Origin: a virus | Taxonomy: Duplodnaviria; Heunggongvirae; Uroviricota; Caudoviricetes | Strand: one strand, 5' to 3' | IMG/VR virus record: IMGVR_UViG_3300028800_000057 | Length of the DNA: 64,000 nucleotides | In this document: one piece after another, positions 8,499 through 60,720 of the stretch | Numbering within the stretch: the stretch's first letter is position 1 | Layout: each line of letters starts with the position of its first letter | The notes under the pieces: model-generated | Database searches by the model: none | The model's input: only the letters and a program-made list of their open reading frames with translations | What the model was told of the DNA's origin: nothing | Position numbers and translations under genes: made by a program

Positions 8499-8834
8499 GT
8501 GGGTTCGATGGCGCTTAACGGACCCTGTCCTTACTGTGGAGTGGGGGATTATTACTACTACAGTATAATGAGCGGGATTAGTGGGTGTCACCTCTGTCAA
8601 AGAAGTGGTTCCCACGAGCACGCTGGGGTTCTACCTCCGAAAGCGTGCGGGCCACTCATCGGCTTTTGGGTGCGGCTCATACGCTGGTGTTGGCTAAAGG
8701 ACCCGCACCTTCACAAGACCTGCTCTCGATGTCATGGAAAGTGGATCTCACCGCCGGTAGGAGTCAAGGGCGAGCCTGTACTGACCAAGCCCAAGAAGAT
8801 CAAGAATCGCTACCAACGAGATCCAGTTATATGA
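8499..8834 (+). CDS. Cys-rich (Zn-finger-like) protein with C-terminal RYQRDPVI tag; likely start ATG 8508
   Basis: Three CxxC pairs; tag at stop; GGTGTA motif 10 nt before ATG 8508. Confidence 0.7.
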   Translation: MGSMALNGPCPYCGVGDYYYYSIMSGISGCHLCQRSGSHEHAGVLPPKACGPLIGFWVRLIRWCWLKDPHLHKTCSRCHGKWISPPVGVKGEPVLTKPKKIKNRYQRDPVI

Positions 8835-9165
8835 CCGGATCCCTTTCGTAACGCGACACTCTCTTGATTGATTCAGGGATAGGCGATGAAGGACGACTCG
8901 ACTCGGATAGCGCAACCCCTTCGAAGCTAAACCAATAGACCCCTCCATTCCATTGCTCAACTTTGATAGCCCAAGAAGAGCCTTGGTAGTTATTGAACAT
9001 GTGGGCTGCCACATTCAATAGGATCTGCCTGTTTGACCCGCCTTCATTCAGCACTTCATTTAGGTCGTGTGCAAACCCATTCAGGTCATCCAGGTCATGA
9101 GTGCTTGCCACACTGAAGACCTCGAAGTCATCCTCGGACTCGCGCATCACAACATTAATAGACAT
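8827..9165 (-). CDS. Hypothetical protein with C-terminal SRYERDPVI tag
   Basis: ATG 9165 abuts the HU-like gene stop; tag at stop. Confidence 0.7.
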   Translation of the reverse strand: MSINVVMRESEDDFEVFSVASTHDLDDLNGFAHDLNEVLNEGGSNRQILLNVAAHMFNNYQGSSWAIKVEQWNGGVYWFSFEGVALSESSRPSSPIPESIKRVSRYERDPVI

Positions 9166-9166
9166 C

Positions 9167-9919
9167 TTACTTGACTTTATACCACCATCGCTTGGGGCTA
9201 GAAAAGATGTCTCTCCTACCACTCAGGGTATTCGAGACTGATGACCTGCGCTGAGGTGCCAGGTTGTTTACATCAAGTCGAGTGCAGATAGTATCGAAGT
9301 CAATTGTGTCACCCCCCATAACATAGATGATGCGTTCGACAAGAGTCTGTGGCTCAGAGTTAGGTGTCCTTGGTCGTGGAGTAAACCTACCAGCCCTAGG
9401 TGGAGTTGCTTGCGGCGGCGGTGGTGGCGGGTCCAAGACAACTACAGCCTGCTCGCGTTTTTTCTTTGGTAGCTTACTTGCTAGCTCCTCCAAGCCCAAT
9501 GCCTCAAGCTCTTCAACACTTAGTTTGGATAATGCCCGCTCCTGAGCCGCCTTTTTAGCCTTTAGCGGCTCCTTCGCCTTGCGTCTCTCCAACGACTTCA
9601 GGTCTGAAATAGACCCCACTACACCCACATCAAGCTTGAACCCAACTAAGAAAGAAGCCCTAAGCTTCTTCGAGGCGGGTCGAGGAGATATAACCATCAC
9701 CTCTCCGTTCACAGGGTTCCTACCGAGCCTCTCCTCTCTTGGTGGGGTATCTACAAGACGAATCCTTAGTACATTCGGGATGTTAACCACCCCATCTCTC
9801 TTCAAGGACCGTTCAAGTACTGTCTGCTGGGCCACCAAAAACGCCCTCACCGCGGTCTTTGTTACCTGGAACTCCCCAAGTTCAGCCTTAATCTCAGTGA
9901 TGAAGTCGGCATTAATCAT
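9167..9919 (-). CDS. HU/IHF-like DNA-binding protein fused to Pro-rich linker and C-terminal winged-helix-like domain
   Basis: R.GRNP.NGE.M.I arm motif (REERLGRNPVNGEVMVISPRPASKKLRASF). Confidence 0.8.
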   Translation of the reverse strand: MINADFITEIKAELGEFQVTKTAVRAFLVAQQTVLERSLKRDGVVNIPNVLRIRLVDTPPREERLGRNPVNGEVMVISPRPASKKLRASFLVGFKLDVGVVGSISDLKSLERRKAKEPLKAKKAAQERALSKLSVEELEALGLEELASKLPKKKREQAVVVLDPPPPPPQATPPRAGRFTPRPRTPNSEPQTLVERIIYVMGGDTIDFDTICTRLDVNNLAPQRRSSVSNTLSGRRDIFSSPKRWWYKVK

Positions 9920-13523: not shown

Positions 13524-13856
13524 ATGACCTACAATGATGCCCAACTAACACTAGAGGAAGTTAATCAGATGCCCATGGATGCTCTGACATTCAATGACTT
13601 TGCTCAGTTGAGTGACAGATCGTTCCACTTCAGGAGTTACAGTGAGGAGCAACTCACTATAGGGGTTCCAATCTCAGAGGTCGAGCGTATTCGAGAACTA
13701 CTCTCAGACTGCAAAGATTCTCGGAAGTATTGGATGTGGGTTCGAGCTGGACTAGAACCAGACAAGGCTCTCCGAAAGGTTAGAGTGGGTCGCGCCCAAG
13801 CCAAGAAGTCTCGTCTGGCTCAAGTAGAGATCATCTATGTTCGACGAGCAGCCTAG
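13524..13856 (+). CDS. Hypothetical protein, probably leaderless mRNA
   Basis: TTGAGA-N16-CGTAAT, ATG 7 nt downstream. Confidence 0.7.
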   Translation: MTYNDAQLTLEEVNQMPMDALTFNDFAQLSDRSFHFRSYSEEQLTIGVPISEVERIRELLSDCKDSRKYWMWVRAGLEPDKALRKVRVGRAQAKKSRLAQVEIIYVRRAA

Positions 13857-14239
13857 ATCACCCATGGGCGCTCGTATCGGGACAGTAATCTCCGAGGACC
13901 TCGGGACTTCCCGAGTGTGTCCCTGAGCAGATCTATCTCGCGTTGTTGAATATCAAGATGTTCTTGATCTTTCGGCTACTCTTCTTTGACATGAGTGAGG
14001 TCCCCACAGATAGCGTCAAGGATGGACTCATCTACTGGCAACCTGAAGATCTGTCCTCTTAAAGTCCTCACGTCGATATAGGACCGAGCGGTGCCACTCA
14101 CCGGAGCAAGGTAAATAACACGATCCGACCCAGGTTCCTTCACAGAAGCAATCTCACGAGCCTCGTTGAACCCAATCACTTCGAGGGTGGCAATAACTGG
14201 AAGAACCGGCCCCGTAGAACTTGGAGTATCTTCTGGCAT
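13853..14239 (-). CDS. 87-aa gene (13976-14239) with a 40-codon in-frame extension past TAG ending in SRYERPWVI
   Basis: TAG at 13976-13978 is in frame with a stop-free stretch to TAG 13853-13855 that carries the family tag. Confidence 0.55.
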
Positions 14240-28448: not shown

Positions 28449-28961
28449 TCAGATCACCCACGCACGATGATACCGACTCACCCGAATAGGTTCAGCCCAG
28501 TCAGGGCATGAACCAAGGGTGTTCGACCGGTAAAGTCGAATAGCCGCTATCGTTGCGCCTGTAACAATCGCCCCAGCGGCATGAGGGATAGCGATAGTAC
28601 CATCAACCCCTCGAGTTACCCTCCAAGTGTTACCCCCAACGCCAGTATCGACACTAGTAACCAGTATGATCTCTTGGTCAACCTGAACCTTAAACCTCGA
28701 TTGAGCCGGGAATCTAGTTGAGTTCGTGACGTGTAGTGTTGACTCACGCTCCCAGATGTTGAACATCAAAGAGGATTTCACCAACGAGTCCTCACTCACG
28801 AAGTTCTCAGTAACCCACTCCCATAGGATGCCGACCGGATGCCCCAGTAAGCAAGTGCCCTCCCACCCAAAGTTTGGGGACCGCCCTACCGCGTCCCCCG
28901 TAACACCCTGAGAGGGATACGTAGAGGGACAGTGCCGGCAACTGTCACAAGGGTTAGGCAT
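28449..28961 (-). CDS. Cys-rich protein with inserted tail-type beta domain and C-terminal SRYHRAWVI tag
   Basis: CxxCxxCP.TYPSQG shared with 30163-30498; insert VDQEIILVT...VTRGVDGT.A..HAAGA.V. Confidence 0.75.
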   Translation of the reverse strand: MPNPCDSCRHCPSTYPSQGVTGDAVGRSPNFGWEGTCLLGHPVGILWEWVTENFVSEDSLVKSSLMFNIWERESTLHVTNSTRFPAQSRFKVQVDQEIILVTSVDTGVGGNTWRVTRGVDGTIAIPHAAGAIVTGATIAAIRLYRSNTLGSCPDWAEPIRVSRYHRAWVI

Positions 28962-29401
28962 CAGATGACCGGATCCCGGTTGTACCTCGAGACCCTGTCA
29001 ACCGGTGTCAATGGCTCCTCAACGGGTGGTTCCGATGAGCCAGTGGGGTCACCTAGGTATCGAATCGTTGCCCATGGACCAAGACCCAGAATCCTCTCTT
29101 GTAGTACTGGAGCTTGTCCCCTCTGAAAGGTGAACTCAACATGGGTGTTCCGAGGGCCCCCCAAATTCGTGAGGGTAAACCCACCCCAGCCACCCCAGTA
29201 TGTACCACCTATCCAAACACGAGTATAAATGTCGTTCTCCGGTACTCCAGGGTCTTCAAAGCCCACCTCGTCAATAACACTACGAAGACTCTGTACCGCT
29301 ATGATAAGATCGCTCGGCCCAAACTCGTGATACCCACCACGACCCGTACGCCCCTTGACCACGAATACCTGATCGCTCTCGTCCACTTCAATCGTTGGCA
29401 T
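28961..29401 (-). CDS. Hypothetical protein with SRYNRDPVI tag (start ATG 29401)
   Basis: GGTGTA 11 nt upstream of ATG 29401; TGATG coupling to next gene. Confidence 0.7.
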   Translation of the reverse strand: MPTIEVDESDQVFVVKGRTGRGGYHEFGPSDLIIAVQSLRSVIDEVGFEDPGVPENDIYTRVWIGGTYWGGWGGFTLTNLGGPRNTHVEFTFQRGQAPVLQERILGLGPWATIRYLGDPTGSSEPPVEEPLTPVDRVSRYNRDPVI

Positions 29402-29420: not shown

Positions 29421-29621
29421 ATGTGGATTGACCCAAAGAAGCAAAACCCCGCGGTCGGAGTACCCGTCAGAGCCCTCCTCCGAGGGGCTACCACTGGGAA
29501 GCTCGTCGAGTCCGTTCTTGTCCACGTCGACGAAGATGACTGCTACTGGAGAACCGCTGACGACAACTCAGAGATAGACTTCAACTGGGAGGTAATCGGA
29601 TGGCTTCCGGAAGTCAAATGA
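29421..29621 (+). CDS. Small DUF551-like protein
   Basis: MWID.....P...V....VIGWLP pattern. Confidence 0.55.
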   Translation: MWIDPKKQNPAVGVPVRALLRGATTGKLVESVLVHVDEDDCYWRTADDNSEIDFNWEVIGWLPEVK

Positions 29622-30114
29622 CCGGTTCCCGCTCGTATCTCGAGACTCGTTCAAGTAAATTGGAACTCTCTTCCGATGGCTCAGCAGGTAACGATGGATC
29701 ATCCTGAACTTCTTCCTCGACAGGATCAGCAAACGCCGTACGGTATAGGTATTGACCCGCTTGCCCAGCTAACTGTGATGTGGGATCTAACCTGACAATA
29801 AAAATGCAAGCGAGGTCATAATCGACAGTACCCTCCTCTAGATTCTGAAGCACCCACTTAGCCACATCGAGTTGGGTACTCTCAACGACGTATAGGGGAG
29901 ACCTCTCCCCTATCAAGTATTGCGCTCTCGAAAGTCGCTCGTCTTGATCCGTACTGTGTTGGAATATGAAGGCTGAGGTAGAGTAGACTAAGGAGGGTCT
30001 TCGATTGCTATCAGCCCACGCCAAAAGATACCGAGCTGCCTCCAATTGCAGTTCAACCGGTACTTCAGAACACCCCATTAGCTTTTGACTAGCAAAACTT
30101 TTTCGTACAGGCAT
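29614..30114 (-). CDS. Hypothetical protein with SRYEREPVI tag (start ATG 30114)
   Basis: GGTGTA 9 nt upstream; tag at stop. Confidence 0.7.
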   Translation of the reverse strand: MPVRKSFASQKLMGCSEVPVELQLEAARYLLAWADSNRRPSLVYSTSAFIFQHSTDQDERLSRAQYLIGERSPLYVVESTQLDVAKWVLQNLEEGTVDYDLACIFIVRLDPTSQLAGQAGQYLYRTAFADPVEEEVQDDPSLPAEPSEESSNLLERVSRYEREPVI

Positions 30115-30130
30115 ATCAAAGAGTACACCA

Positions 30131-30163
30131 TCAGATGACCGGATCCCGCTCATATCTAGGCAT
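30131..30163 (-). CDS. 10-aa micro-ORF MPRYERDPVI consisting only of the tag
   Basis: ATG overlaps TGA of the upstream gene (TGATG); ends in TGA at 30131-33. Confidence 0.5.
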   Translation of the reverse strand: MPRYERDPVI

Positions 30164-30498
30164 CAAATCACCCACTCCCGCGAGTAACGACTCCTCCGAA
30201 GCCCAGCATACTTGACGTCTCGGTCAGGACAATTCAACCAAAGAACCGAACGATACAGATGGATAGTCTTCACATCCTCCAATGGACCATCCCATACCCA
30301 ACAGACCCGTACCTCATGACCCCGAGAACAAGCCGCCCTCCAAACAAAGTCAGCAACCGGTATCCGGCCAATAGCCTCCGTGCCTACAACACCCTGAGAG
30401 GGATACGTCAAGGGACAATACCGACAACCATCACATGAAGGCGGTAAAGCCAAATCACGCCCCCCGGGTACCCAAAGACCAACGCTCATTGATCCCAT
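30163..30498 (-). CDS. Cys-rich protein with SRYSREWVI tag, paralog of 28449-28961
   Basis: CDGCRYCPLTYPSQG; tag at stop. Confidence 0.7.
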   Translation of the reverse strand: MGSMSVGLWVPGGRDLALPPSCDGCRYCPLTYPSQGVVGTEAIGRIPVADFVWRAACSRGHEVRVCWVWDGPLEDVKTIHLYRSVLWLNCPDRDVKYAGLRRSRYSREWVI

Positions 30499-30895
30499 TC
30501 AGGTATGACGATACTTCAACCGTATCGTCAGCTATGTACCCAGTACCACTCCGAAAAGGCTCGATACAGACCTCGGAGCAATAACACGAAACCCGACCCG
30601 CAATCTCCCTGAACCCACGCTCAAACTCCATCGCCACCGGTCCCGATGTCAAGACCGTAACCCGAGAAGCACTCTCAGAGATGAACAAGACATGGTGAAG
30701 TAGAAGACGAACATAGAGCTGCTCCGCTACCCACAAGATCCGCGAATCATGATCCGCACCCCAGATGATAGCAAAGTCGTGATTGCTCATCTGAGGTACC
30801 CATACAAGAGCCCGTAGTACCGAATAGTGAATACCATTACCCAGTATTGGGTCTTCATCATGCAAAGTGGTGAAAAACTCAGAGTATAGCTTCAT
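30455..30895 (-). CDS. Hypothetical protein
   Basis: 146-aa ORF. Confidence 0.65.
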   Translation of the reverse strand: MKLYSEFFTTLHDEDPILGNGIHYSVLRALVWVPQMSNHDFAIIWGADHDSRILWVAEQLYVRLLLHHVLFISESASRVTVLTSGPVAMEFERGFREIAGRVSCYCSEVCIEPFRSGTGYIADDTVEVSSYLNGINERWSLGTRGA

Positions 30896-40903: not shown

Positions 40904-42259
40904 ATGGAGGTCGTTCCCTTTAATAATCCGTTTCTACTCAATCTTGGGGGTATGGAAAACCACGAAGAACTAGCTTCTGAGCACCCAACTAACCCTTGCC
41001 CTGCTCCCATACCAGAAGGACAGGTCCAACAAGCTATCCCCGAGGAGCTGCTTCGAACTGTAGTTGACGAGCTGAGGGGTATACGAGCCGATCTATCCGC
41101 CTTGGGTGATATGCGACAACTCGTCAAGGACCTGGTGAACTCCTTCTTGAACTTAGAGCCTCGAGTGGCGAAACTAGAGCACGATGCTGCACATGGGTTC
41201 GGTATTTGCAAGTACCACCATGATGGGGAAGTCAATAAGGACGTCTAACCCATATTAGTCGTTGAGATCCGGTCCCTGTCGTGCGTAATAGGGATCATGA
41301 GACATCAACGAGCATACACGATGAGAAGTACCCGTAGACGCCCACCATCACCCGAGAGTTTAGCCCGCGCAGTCAGAGGGGTTATGGGGTTGAAGGATAC
41401 AGATCCACTACCTACGCCCGAGGAGTTAGAGGCAGCCCTCCTTCCTCACGTAGACAAGGTCATGCCCAATGGCCTTGTGCTTCGAATGACCAGGGACACG
41501 GACGGTACACCCATGTTCGGAGTTGAGAAGGTCCAACCCACTCTCACATCAAACCCATGACCTTGAACCCGACCACCGAGAACAACGCCCAGCCCTTCAC
41601 CGGTAGTCAGAGGGTCATCCTGGAGAAGCGGACCCCTGAAGGCATCCTAGACCTGTCCGATCCCCAGCCCCCGCTCAAGGTCCATGATGTCGACGGCCGA
41701 GGACGTGGTACGCCCCGGGACCTCACCTTCGACGACGTCTACCGGATGATGTTCGATGCATGCCCAGACGCCCAAGGCTCCTGGGAGACACTCCGAGCTT
41801 GGCTCGACTCCAAGAGCTGGGTCGTAAGAGCCAAGACATGGTGAAGTACCGTAAGCTCTCAGAGCGAGACATCCTCCGGTGGGATGACGAGTACCGTCCA
41901 TACCCCGAGAGGATGTGGATGAAGGTCCACGGACCCGCTACAGGCTCACTCCATACGGTAGGGCTCCACCCGTACCCAGGGTTCGAGTACCGAAGGAAGA
42001 TACCATGCCCCAAATCATCGAACTGAACCGTCGGCTCTTCATCGAGTGGTCCAAAGGGACGCTCCTGAAGCGGGACCGTAATGGCAAGTGCATCGTCCTA
42101 GACGGCTCCGACTTCGCCCGTCAGTGCGAAGGGGTGGAAGCGGCTCTTGACCAAGGCGCTACGCTCTACCTCACAGACGATGCCGGCAAGCGTATCACCA
42201 AGATCACCTCCGACGGTAAGGGCTACGAAGAAGAGCTCCTAGACGAAGATTCTTGTTGA
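40904..42259 (+). other. Run of small + strand hypothetical genes (40904-41248, 41297-41560, 41557-41844, ~41838-42026, ~42002-42259)
   Basis: Coupled ORFs; class A promoter at 41262. Confidence 0.6.
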
Positions 42260-43996: not shown

Positions 43997-44797
43997 CTAT
44001 TCGAGATCTGCTTCCCGGATGAGTCTAGTCATCTTCAGGAGTGCTCGGGCTTTAGTTTGACTGACTAGAGGTTCTGAGACGCCCCAGGAGGTGGCGAGAT
44101 CCGCGAACTTGTCACCGGAGGCTAGGGCCTCGATGACTTGTCGTTCTCGGTCGCTGAAGGGGATTGAGTCGACTTGTTGGAGAATGTTCCGGAAGTGGAG
44201 GGTTTTGTCTTGAGTGGGTGAGTTGGACTGGATAACAGTGTACTCAATGTCCTCAAACCTAGGTTTGTCATCGGCCTTCATCAATCGGCGGGGGATCTTG
44301 GACTCGACTCGGATCTCATCCCATACTTGACCTCGAATACGGAGGCGGGCGTAACCGGGGAATGATGCCTCCTCGCCGGTGAAGCGGGTGCAGGCGTCCC
44401 ATAGGCCGATGGTCCCGAAGTGTTCGAGGGTCTTGAGGTCGTAGCTGTGGCACAGCTTGCGGATGAGGATTCGGGCTTCGAGGTTGACCAGGTGCAGGTT
44501 AGCTTGGAAGCGTTCCTGGAGTGGATCTCGGGGCTTGATGGGTTCTGGGGCGCCGATGGTGATGAACCTAGCAGGGTGGACGATAGCCTGGACCTTGAAC
44601 TCACTCATATCGATTACCAAGCCCTTACGGCGGGAGTGGTAAATCTTCATCGAGTCGGAGCGAGAAATCTTCCCTGTGTGGGTGATGACGGTTTCCCGGT
44701 GAAGCCCAGTCATCTTTGAGATCTGGCGCAGGCTAAACCCTTGGTTGCGAAGTCGTGCGGCTTCGTCAAGGCGTTTGGGGTCAGAGAAGTTGGCCAT
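43997..44797 (-). CDS. FliA/WhiG-like sigma-70 family factor with an extra N-terminal HTH
   Basis: Region 2 GTIGLWDA..RF.....F.GYA.LRIRGQ.WDEIR; region 4 SDRERQVI...LA..WGVSE..VSQ...RAL; N-terminal G.SLRQIS..TGLHR.TV. Confidence 0.85.
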   Translation of the reverse strand: MANFSDPKRLDEAARLRNQGFSLRQISKMTGLHRETVITHTGKISRSDSMKIYHSRRKGLVIDMSEFKVQAIVHPARFITIGAPEPIKPRDPLQERFQANLHLVNLEARILIRKLCHSYDLKTLEHFGTIGLWDACTRFTGEEASFPGYARLRIRGQVWDEIRVESKIPRRLMKADDKPRFEDIEYTVIQSNSPTQDKTLHFRNILQQVDSIPFSDRERQVIEALASGDKFADLATSWGVSEPLVSQTKARALLKMTRLIREADLE

Positions 44798-59416: not shown

Positions 59417-60120
59417 ACTTCACTAGGAGCATTTGTATCAGATGATACTCCTAGAGAGTAACTCAGTACTCCTGTGGTTCATTTGGGTTACCGCGTCGTG
59501 GGGGTTCTATGTTTACCCCAGGCTTGATGCTCTTGAGGATGAGCGCGACCGCTTCATCGAGTTGCATGTCCTGGGTTAGTTGGAGGTTCTCTATCTTGGT
59601 TTCGTAGGAGCCATCAGGGTTTGGCTTGAGGGAGTAGCAGTCTTGGATCATGCCCAGCCCCGATGAGTGATCTACCCAACCCCCACCCATGATGCCGTAC
59701 TGGTCAAGGTTATGAGTACGGAGCCCGGCGGCCTTGAGCTGTGCAACGGCTTCTTCTTGTGTCATAGACCCTCTTTAGCATGAAATGAGCAGAATTGGGT
59801 ACCATCATAATCCGGTATGGGGTGCCCCCAGTACTTGCAGAAAGGTACCTCGCAGACCTGCCCGCGATTAGCACAAGTCGCGCAGGTCTCGGGGCGAGGG
59901 ACATACTGCCTAATCTCTTGTTTTGGATAGAGTTTTAGTGGTGGTTGGGTTCGTGCTCGCAACAAGTTACCGAATACGTCAAAGAGCACGTATATCACCG
60001 ACGGCGGAATCTTATGGTTAACCATCAAATAACTGGTGTTCTCTCGTAACGTGATAGGCGAATGCGCGGGGGCTCTGGGGGATCCGGTTGGCCCTTTGTA
60101 GGGCAATGGCCGGGCATAAA

Positions 60121-60720
60121 TTACATCGATCTCATACCACCAAGGTCGAATGCCATGGAGATGATGGGGTGTCCAGTCACATCAGTTCTGGAGTCAACTC
60201 GTATATCTCCAAGTTGAGGGACGAAAGTTAGAGTCATAGTTCGAGACTCATTCAAGTTCTGATCTAGTCTGGCTTCTACAACCCCAGCAGCAGTCAGTAG
60301 CGGCCCCAACCCATCTCGGACTGGTTCGGGTATCTCGGTCGCTTCCTCTTCATCTCTGGACCATACCCGTTCAACGTCTGCTGCTCCGCCGGTGGCGAGT
60401 GTCCTTCCAATCTCGTGAAGGAGCATGAGCATAGTGTCCCCAGTCACTGGACCAATGTAGTTATTCAGGATTCTAGTAGTTATGGCCTGCACACGACGGT
60501 GGATCGCCTGGGATATTTGAGCCTGTGCAGGTGGAATCAGGGGCACCCCGTCTTGGTCAACGACAACCCTCTCCAATCTACTAGCCCAATCTTTTGGTTT
60601 TAAGTCATGACGCTCCACCGGGACTCCGCGTCTCGGGCGTATCCGGTTCCAAAATCTCTCGAATTGGTCTTCATCAGCCACGGGATTATATACACTAGGT
60701 TCAGGGGCCGGGTTGATCAA
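60121..60720 (-). CDS. Hypothetical protein, partial paralog of 50181-50969
   Basis: DEDQFERFWNRIRPRR. Confidence 0.7.
   Translation of the reverse strand: MINPAPEPSVYNPVADEDQFERFWNRIRPRRGVPVERHDLKPKDWASRLERVVVDQDGVPLIPPAQAQISQAIHRRVQAITTRILNNYIGPVTGDTMLMLLHEIGRTLATGGAADVERVWSRDEEEATEIPEPVRDGLGPLLTAAGVVEARLDQNLNESRTMTLTFVPQLGDIRVDSRTDVTGHPIISMAFDLGGMRSM

What the first reader, a model, noticed from the sequence alone, without database searches (positions are those of the whole stretch)
30131..30163. 10-aa micro-ORF that is nothing but the tag (MPRYERDPVI)
Seen: its ATG overlaps the TGA of the tagged upstream gene (TGATG), the same coupling used at 28961 where the next gene also begins M-P. 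It is below the ORF-track cutoff. Inference: a free competitor peptide that titrates the tag receptor, or a relic showing that tags are added to genes as a modular cassette.
Basis: partly seen in the sequence, partly recalled or inferred. Interest (0 to 1): 0.7.

Follow-up and report, generated by a model that had tools for sequence, protein, structure and literature searches.

The report
Tag-only mini-ORF: a gene stub
The ten-codon reading frame is real. It is most likely the leftover start and tail of a lost tagged gene in a fast-changing gene array of a huge soil phage, not a purpose-built free tag peptide.

Summary
On the minus strand, 30163..30131 reads M-P-R-Y-E-R-D-P-V-I-stop. Its ATG overlaps the TGA of the upstream tagged gene A (TGATG), as at the C/D junction near 28961. 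This is tag-coding DNA and not chance: 28.5 bits on a tag matrix, against at most 13 in shuffles.

It is not the whole tag. In 59 distinct tails the tag runs R-[VLI]-[S/T/N]-R-Y-E-R-x-[P/W]-V-I, and position -9 is never Pro. The mini-ORF keeps only the last eight residues.

Both flanks look like ordinary gene ends. The 5' side is the usual stop/start overlap with ATGCCTA, as in the D-family genes. On the 3' side, one base after the stop comes GGTGTA-N9-ATG, the standard signal for the next gene, B.

Three syntenic relatives (70-85% DNA identity, plus a 512-kb phage) lack the A-mini-B arrangement. B has no relatives anywhere except its tag.

Tags get separated from gene bodies repeatedly in this clade. 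One relative has CGA changed to TGA just before its tag.

Best reading: a deletion or recombination scar, probably still translated by coupling, with no evidence of function. Earlier reports of this scan had already found the tag in other windows of this genome, but not this mini-ORF.

The parts
30131..30163 (-). 10-codon mini-ORF MPRYERDPVI plus TGA. It consists of 7 nt of a D-type gene start (ATGCCTA) followed by 26 nt of tag-coding tail.
30157..30165 (-). TGATGCCTA stop/start overlap at the end of gene A. It is identical to the C/D junction at 28955-28963.
30163..30489 (-). Gene A, 108 aa (111 aa from the ATG at 30498). It has the Cys-rich N-terminus CDGCRYCPxTYPSQGV and the tail ...KYAGLRRSRYSREWVI. 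It belongs to the multi-copy 'PYxGPRVSRY' branch of the D family.
30124..30129 (-). GGTGTA start signal of gene B. It lies 1 nt after the mini-ORF stop and 9 nt before B's ATG.
29614..30114 (-). Gene B, 166 aa from MPVRK..., tail RVSRYEREPVI. It is an orphan with no relative apart from the tag. Public gene calls start it at 30153, inside the mini-ORF.
28961..29401 (-). Gene C, 146 aa from MPTIEVD..., tail RVSRYNRDPVI. Its last 20 nt plus the TG that follows are identical to those of the mini-ORF (28959-28978 versus 30129-30148).
28449..28961 (-). Gene D, 170 aa, MPNPCDSC..., tail RVSRYHRAWVI. It is the ortholog of the gene that directly follows X in both close relatives.
30455..30895 (-). Gene X, 146 aa, untagged. 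It is the conserved anchor gene used for synteny.

Best explanation
The mini-ORF is a scar of gene turnover. A small tagged gene once lay between gene A and the promoter-like GGTGTA signal of gene B, and the mini-ORF is its first 7 bases and last 26 bases. Alternatively, it is a chimera made when the B-C block was recombined in: the start of the resident D-type gene (ATGCCTA) became joined illegitimately to the tag end of the donor's upstream gene. Either way, it sits in an array of small tagged genes that is reshuffled between related phages, with the tag-coding ends and D-family 5' ends as the recurring short homologies. Its ATG keeps the ordinary stop/start overlap with gene A, so ribosomes finishing A probably do translate it (inferred). 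The product would be a 9-10 residue peptide lacking the conserved first third of the tag. Nothing shows that this peptide is kept by selection or does anything. Shown here: the anatomy, the absence from relatives, and recurrent tag detachment elsewhere. Inferred: the deletion or recombination event itself, and translation.
For: 1. The 5' side is typical. A TGATG or ATGA stop/start overlap follows 19 of 52 tags, and in 15 of those it opens an ORF of 71-187 codons. ATGCCTA is also the start of D in the window and in G001.

2. The 3' side is typical. The stop is followed after 1 nt by GGTGTA, then 9 nt, then B's ATG. GGTGTA is the most enriched hexamer upstream of ORFs (16-fold) and sits 9-12 nt before an ATG. 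Six other tags have the same layout.

3. Between the two sides there is nothing but the last 8 tag residues. Tagged frames are otherwise 81-239 codons long.

4. Synteny. In G001 and G002, X is followed directly by the D ortholog. In the 512-kb phage G004 it is followed by unrelated untagged genes. None has A-mini-B.

5. B's body has no relative in 5.8 billion proteins or in any fetched relative.

6. Other detached tags exist. G002 has TGA where G001 has the -11 Arg codon CGA, leaving an orphan VSRYDRSPVI. The window's tag at 13853 lies behind a TAG that is open in two orthologs. There are further cases at window 60025, G002 96263 and G004.

7. The mini-ORF's tag codons are closest to those of its neighbours B and C: 24/27 and 23/27 nt, against 22/27 or fewer for about 50 other tags, and 6 of 8 same-residue codons are identical against a background of 0.38.
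Against: No relative was found in which the presumed ancestral gene is still intact, so the deletion or recombination event is inferred and not observed. The ORF is intact, with a good start context and a perfect match to the last eight tag positions. All its differences from the tags of B and C are synonymous or between allowed residues. That is what selection on the peptide would also give, although a recent event gives the same picture. Only identical copies of this locus exist in the data I could query, so conservation could not be tested at short evolutionary distance.
Confidence: 0.7

Rival explanations
1. It is a functional free tag peptide. The peptide (M)PRYERDPVI is made by translational coupling to gene A and binds the unknown tag receptor, acting as a competitor or regulator of tagged proteins.
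For: The ORF is intact, has a coupled TGATG start with a GGTGAT Shine-Dalgarno-like word 3 nt upstream, and carries all eight C-terminal consensus residues. From general knowledge, genes this short can be translated: mccA of microcin C7 has 7 codons.
Against: It is not present in any of three syntenic relatives. It lacks the -11 Arg and has Pro at -9, where S, T or N is found in 59 of 59 tails. It is a single copy, and no second ATG-plus-tag mini-ORF appeared in 229 kb of the clade plus the 17 tag sites of G004. The other orphan tags are products of nonsense mutations or of insertions. From general knowledge, short unstructured peptides are usually degraded quickly in bacterial cytoplasm.
Confidence: 0.08
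2. It is a translational relay or spacer ORF. It is kept because it takes ribosomes from the end of gene A and releases them just before gene B's start signal, so it affects B's expression or protects the A-B spacer.
For: It fills 33 of the 48 nt between A's stop and B's ATG, and its stop lies 1 nt before GGTGTA and 16 nt before B's ATG.
Against: B has its own GGTGTA-N9-ATG signal like about 88 other genes, so it needs no relay. The region forms no RNA structure beyond shuffled controls (z = -0.78), and there is no terminator-like site. It contains no regulatory-codon run or known arrest motif. Conservation could not be tested.
Confidence: 0.1
3. It is an empty tag cassette. A start codon joined to a tag is retained as a landing site, so that incoming genes acquire the tag by in-frame insertion, and this would explain how unrelated proteins come to share the tag.
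For: Tags of neighbouring genes share slightly more synonymous codons than distant ones (0.43 against 0.38, permutation p about 0.025). The mini-ORF's tag is closest to those of B and C. Gene content around fixed anchor genes changes between relatives.
Against: This is one instance only. The effect is small and falls to 0.418 without the mini-ORF. Selection cannot maintain a site for future use. No case was seen of different gene bodies sitting on one conserved tag-plus-flank.
Confidence: 0.05
4. The region is really the N-terminal coding part of gene B, starting at the ATG at 30153 as in the public 179-aa gene call, and the mini-ORF is just an out-of-frame overlap.
For: The 179-aa form is the one on record, on 8 contigs. 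A and B are in the same frame with only one TGA between them.
Against: GGTGTA lies 9 nt before the ATG at 30114, the modal spacing in this phage, and that start gives the common M-P beginning. The 13 extra residues are encoded by tag DNA read in another frame. This rival concerns B's start and would not change the origin of the tag-coding stretch.
Confidence: 0.07

Closest known systems
Gene remnants at mosaic junctions of phage genomes (the illegitimate-recombination view of phage mosaicism, from general knowledge of the Hendrix/Hatfull work)
   Same: It is a short piece of a gene left at a junction between modules that differ between related phages, with boundaries at gene ends. One side is explicable by homology (D-family start, tag DNA) and the other by an illegitimate join.
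   Different: Here the remnant happens to keep a start codon, a reading frame and a stop, so it is still an ORF. What it encodes is a portable C-terminal tag and not a fragment of a folded domain.
Overlapping stop/start translational coupling (TGATG, ATGA) in operons and phages
   Same: The mini-ORF start overlaps the stop of the upstream gene, exactly as 15 real genes after tagged genes do in this clade.
   Different: The coupled ORF is only 10 codons long, and the next real gene has its own start signal.
Leader peptides and very small translated genes (trpL, ermCL, mccA)
   Same: Its size (7-24 codons in those cases) shows that translation of 10 codons is feasible.
   Different: It has no attenuator structure, no arrest or regulatory codons, no conservation and no modification genes nearby.
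Short terminal address peptides such as encapsulin cargo-loading peptides and the T4 capsid targeting sequence (comparison for the tag itself, as in the earlier reports e1-1600656 and e1-1618766)
   Same: It is a short terminal peptide shared by many unrelated small proteins of one genome.
   Different: The sequences are not similar, no shell or receptor has been identified, and no free-standing copy of such a peptide is known to act as a competitor in those systems.

Membership tests
SRYER...VI C-terminal tag of this phage clade | R-Y-x-R-x-[P/W]-V-I directly before the stop codon | tested here: met
   RYERDPVI followed by TGA; 28.5 bits on the DNA matrix
SRYER...VI C-terminal tag of this phage clade | S, T or N at -9, a hydrophobic residue or Pro at -10, and Arg at -11 | tested here: not met
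   Position -9 is Pro (0 of 59 tails have Pro there), -10 is the initiator Met, and -11 does not exist
SRYER...VI C-terminal tag of this phage clade | The tag is carried on a protein body (open frames of 81-239 codons) | tested here: not met
   The ORF has 10 codons, and the frame is open for only 30 codons upstream, inside gene A's tail
Gene remnant or recombination scar | It keeps recognisable ends of ordinary genes with the middle missing | tested here: met
   TGATGCCTA start junction as at C/D and as in D-family starts; tag end plus 1 nt plus GGTGTA-N9-ATG, as after six other tags
Gene remnant or recombination scar | It is absent from syntenic relatives, and the locus is variable | tested here: met
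   G001 has X-D-Z-Y, G002 has X-D'-Y-C, and G004 has X followed by unrelated genes
Gene remnant or recombination scar | An intact ancestral gene is visible in a relative | tested here: inconclusive
   None was found.
Regulatory leader peptide or uORF | Alternative RNA structures, or an arrest or regulatory-codon motif, coupled to the downstream gene | tested here: not met
   Fold z = -0.78, no terminator-like site, and B has its own start signal
Functional free (decoy) peptide | Conserved as an independent ORF in related genomes | tested here: not met
   It is absent from G001, G002 and G004. The only other 10-codon orphan tag (G002 52580) arises from a CGA to TGA change
Functional free (decoy) peptide | The peptide is produced and binds the tag receptor | not testable with these tools
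   The receptor is unknown, the phage is uncultured, and no expression data exist

The most novel reading that the evidence does not exclude
The stub is translated, and the resulting 9-10 residue peptide occupies the still unknown receptor of the clade's C-terminal tag. The phage would then carry a genetically encoded free competitor that tunes how about a seventh of its small proteins are addressed. A related variant is that such start-plus-tag stubs are the intermediates through which new genes acquire the tag.
Probability: 0.08. Interest if true: 0.65.

Novelty: already known. Interest (0 to 1): 0.25.

Why it matters
By itself the mini-ORF is an ordinary by-product of genome mosaicism and does not need a new mechanism. 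Its value is as a marker. It shows that the tag-coding ends and the stop/start junctions are where this phage clade's small-gene arrays break and rejoin. Tags are also repeatedly cut off from their proteins by nonsense mutation, deletion or insertion. That bears on how a portable protein tag spreads and is lost in a huge-phage lineage. It also supplies natural tagged and untagged pairs (for example gene Y in G001 against G002) that could help find what the tag does. The truncated peptide is a ready-made control for any future binding test of the tag.

Tried and rejected
- The frame upstream of the mini-ORF reads ...SEESLLAGVGDL, which looked like B's tail ...SEESSNLLERV. Local alignment scored 13, with shuffle p about 0.1, and several unrelated tags scored higher. 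I rejected it as chance.
- Read-through or frameshift joining A to the mini-ORF or to B. A and B share a frame across one TGA, but that has roughly a 15% chance expectation. The mini-ORF is in another frame with no slippery site. Not supported.
- The mini-ORF as the 3' exon of a split gene. X is in the same frame, but X is untagged in all relatives. Rejected.
- The 9-nt TGATGCCTA repeat as a transposon target duplication. Seven of the nine bases are explained by the stop/start overlap plus the common M-P start, and no terminal inverted repeats were evident. I left it as microhomology.
- RNA hairpin or terminator in the spacer: none.
- Suppressor tRNA to explain tags behind stops. There are no tRNA genes in the window, G001 or G002, and the three internal stops are of three different kinds.
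- Searches that found nothing for this locus: IMG/VR by A, by B and by the exact junction; INPHARED phages by DNA; JGI metagenome contigs and GTDB genomes by the neighbouring gene.
- The metagenome contigs found with the tag pattern cover other parts of the window only and could not be searched by handle.
- My first tblastn of B used a wrong frame. I repeated it correctly, with the same negative result.
- One literature search gave nothing relevant.

Full report
**What is there.** The genes of this stretch lie on the minus strand. The order is X (30895..30455, untagged), A (30489..30163, tail SRYSREWVI), the mini-ORF (30163..30131), B (30114..29614, tail SRYEREPVI), C (29401..28961, tail SRYNRDPVI) and D (28961..28449, tail SRYHRAWVI). 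The mini-ORF reads ATG CCT AGA TAT GAG CGG GAT CCG GTC ATC TGA, which is MPRYERDPVI. Its ATG shares its A with the TGA of gene A (TGATG).

**The tag is a peptide, and the mini-ORF carries only part of it.** Ten frames in the window end in the motif. Ser is encoded by both TCN and AGY, Arg by both CGN and AGR, and all three stop codons occur, so selection acts on the protein. I pooled the window, two IMG/VR relatives and five metagenome fragments. The 59 distinct tails give R(-11, 45/59), V/L/I(-10, 42/59), S/T/N(-9, 59/59, never Pro), then R-Y-E-R-x-[P/W]-V-I. The frames that carry them are 81-239 codons long. The mini-ORF has the last eight residues, Pro at -9, the initiator Met at -10 and nothing at -11. 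On a DNA position matrix it scores 28.5 bits, within the range of real tags (20.6-45.3) and far above shuffled sequence (13 at most). So it is homologous tag-coding DNA, but an N-terminally truncated tag. Earlier reports of this scan had already described the tag in other windows of this roughly 443-kb soil phage, but not this mini-ORF.

**Both flanks are those of an ordinary gene.**
- GGTGTA is the most enriched hexamer upstream of ORFs in the three genomes (71 observed against 4.5 expected). It sits 9-12 nt before an ATG in 61 of the 88 GGTGTA sites that have an ATG-started ORF of at least 50 codons within 30 nt. An earlier report reads it as a phage promoter that gives almost leaderless mRNAs.
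- B's ATG at 30114 has GGTGTA (30129..30124) exactly 9 nt upstream. B therefore starts there, and not at the ATG at 30153 used in the public 179-aa call.
- The mini-ORF's stop is followed after one base by this GGTGTA. Six other tagged genes have the same layout of tag stop, 1-9 nt, GGTGTA, 8-12 nt, ATG.
- On the 5' side, the next ATG overlaps the stop of 19 of 52 tags (10 TGATG, 9 ATGA), and 15 of these open ORFs of 71-187 codons.
- ATGCCTA is also the start of D in the window and of its ortholog in G001.
- The mini-ORF is thus a normal gene start and a normal gene end with the body missing.

**Relatives.**
- The locus is not in INPHARED. Neither A, B nor the junction pattern is in IMG/VR.
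- Scanning IMG/VR with a back-translated tag found two contigs, G001 (67 kb) and G002 (98.5 kb). They are syntenic with the window at 70-85% DNA identity.
- In G001 the order is X, D, Z (tagged), Y (tagged), then the homolog of window gene 28080. In G002 it is X, a shortened D, Y, C.
- By protein comparison the window's D, not A, is the ortholog of the gene that follows X in both relatives. A belongs to a multi-copy branch of the same Cys-rich family.
- A profile of X found a complete 512-kb relative, G004, in which X is followed by unrelated untagged genes.
- B's body has no relative among 5.8 billion proteins or in any fetched DNA. Only its tag matches.
- The A-mini-B arrangement is therefore specific to the window's lineage, in a spot where gene content differs in every relative.
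- A closer strain exists: proteins P0009 and P0010 are about 88% identical to the gene next to X.

**Detached tags recur and are degenerative.** A six-frame scan of 229 kb found 46 tags on long frames and a few that are cut off from a body.
- In G002, gene Y ends ...PSIH-TGA-VSRYDRSPVI-TGA. The TGA aligns with the -11 Arg codon CGA of the intact, tagged Y in G001. This leaves a second 10-codon orphan tag, made by a plain nonsense change.
- In the window, the tag at 13853 lies 40 codons behind a TAG. The orthologs in G002 and in metagenome fragment L034 are open there, and L034's frame is open for 114 codons ending in the tag.
- At window 60025, a 30-codon ORF (MPGHCP...RLSRYERTPVI) follows the TAA of a 199-codon gene in the same frame.
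- In G002 at 96263, a TAG replaces the Trp inside the tag.
- G004 has one tail behind two in-frame stops, and one tail downstream of a LAGLIDADG endonuclease ORF.
- The internal stops are of three different kinds, and no tRNA genes are present in these sequences, so a suppressor does not explain them.

About one tag in ten is thus separated from its gene. The mini-ORF is the only case made by loss of the body and not by a stop.

**Origin.** The mini-ORF's 27 tag bases are closest to those of its neighbours B (24/27) and C (23/27), while about 50 other tags reach 22/27 at most. The 20 bases CGGGATCCGGTCATCTGATG are identical at 30148..30129 and 28978..28959. At positions with the same residue, 6 of 8 codons are identical to B and to C, against a background of 0.38. 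Neighbouring tags in general are only slightly more alike than distant ones (0.43 against 0.38, p about 0.025).

Two scenarios fit.
1. An in-frame deletion of a gene that began ATGCCTA... and ended ...AGA TAT GAG CGG GAT CCG GTC ATC TGA.
2. Import of the B-C block by one homologous crossover in or near D and one illegitimate join between base 7 of the resident D-type gene and the tag of the donor's upstream gene. This would also explain why TGATGCCTA occurs at both ends of the block.

I cannot choose between them, and both make the mini-ORF a scar. The 48-nt patch of 85% identity between the 5' parts of A and D suggests further exchange in this family.

**Function.** Translation is likely, given the coupled start and a GGTGAT word 3 nt upstream, but this is inferred. 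There is no RNA structure beyond shuffled controls (z = -0.78) and no terminator-like site in the spacer. B has its own start signal, so a relay role is not needed. For the free-competitor idea nothing speaks except that the ORF is intact. Against it stand the absence from relatives, the missing conserved third of the tag and the single occurrence.

**Verdict.** I put the scar reading at about 0.7 and a functional free peptide at under 0.1. The feature is real, but it is an ordinary kind of thing, so interest is low. The tag system behind it remains the interesting object, and it was already on record in this scan.

Noticed in passing
G004 = IMGVR_UViG_3300028654_000001 (512,571 bp), e.g. loci L050-L066: The distant 512-kb relative carries a variant of the tag, about P-T-R-F-E-R-[E/D]-[D/E/P]-V-I-stop, on 17 tails and none of the R-Y-E-R form. 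Phe replaces Tyr and an acidic residue replaces P/W. This looks like the tag and its unknown reader changing together between lineages.
   Followed up: partly
L066 (G004:317216-318242): A tagged tail (...PTRFEREEVI) of 54 codons with no ATG start lies just downstream of a LAGLIDADG-type endonuclease ORF in another frame. The tagged gene may be split by an intron or a homing-endonuclease insertion.
   Followed up: no
G002:52580-52612 (L015:3081-3113), minus strand: Gene Y ends ...PSIH-TGA-VSRYDRSPVI-TGA. The TGA aligns with the CGA (Arg -11) of the intact tagged Y in G001, giving a natural untagged/tagged pair of one gene.
   Followed up: yes
window 60025-60117, minus strand: A 30-codon ORF (MPGHCPTKGQPDPPEPPRIRLSRYERTPVI) starts one codon after the TAA of the 199-codon gene 60121-60720, in the same frame. 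It is either a nonsense-split tail or a linker-plus-tag mini-gene. No ortholog was found in G001 or G002.
   Followed up: partly
window 13853-13978, minus strand: The in-frame TAG in front of this tag is not conserved. The orthologs in G002 (about 41939-42235) and in metagenome fragment L034 (frame open for 114 codons ending in ...RLSRYERPWVI) read through that position. A lineage-specific nonsense change is therefore more likely than programmed read-through.
   Followed up: partly
G002:96237-96263, plus strand: One tag has TAG at the Trp position (SRYDRK-TAG-VI-TGA), so the tag is damaged inside.
   Followed up: no
window 8499-8834 (+) and 8827-9222 (-): Two convergent genes both end in the tag and overlap by 8 nt at their stops (TTATATGA / TCATATAA). 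The same pair is conserved in G001 at about 44385-44392.
   Followed up: partly
window, G001 and G002 as a whole: Two sharply positioned upstream words occur. GGTGTA sits 9-12 nt before the ATG (88 of 163 sites precede an ORF). GCGTAATA sits exactly 6 nt before the ATG (31 of 49 sites). Both were already noted by earlier reports of this scan as promoters for (near-)leaderless mRNAs.
   Followed up: partly
window 30114-30498, minus strand: Genes A and B are in the same reading frame, with a single TGA and 15 sense codons between A's tag and B's Met. This is probably chance, at roughly 15% expectation.
   Followed up: partly
tag ends throughout: The common codons for ...[P/W]-V-I (xxG GTG ATC) spell GGTGATC, which is complementary to the 3' end of 16S rRNA. 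They lie 2-3 nt before the ATG of genes whose start overlaps the tag's stop, so the tag end may double as a ribosome-binding site.
   Followed up: no
L037-L049 (IMG/VR): Gene X belongs to a family found at 26-39% identity in about a dozen smaller viral contigs (16-64 kb), so it is much more widespread than the tagged genes next to it.
   Followed up: no
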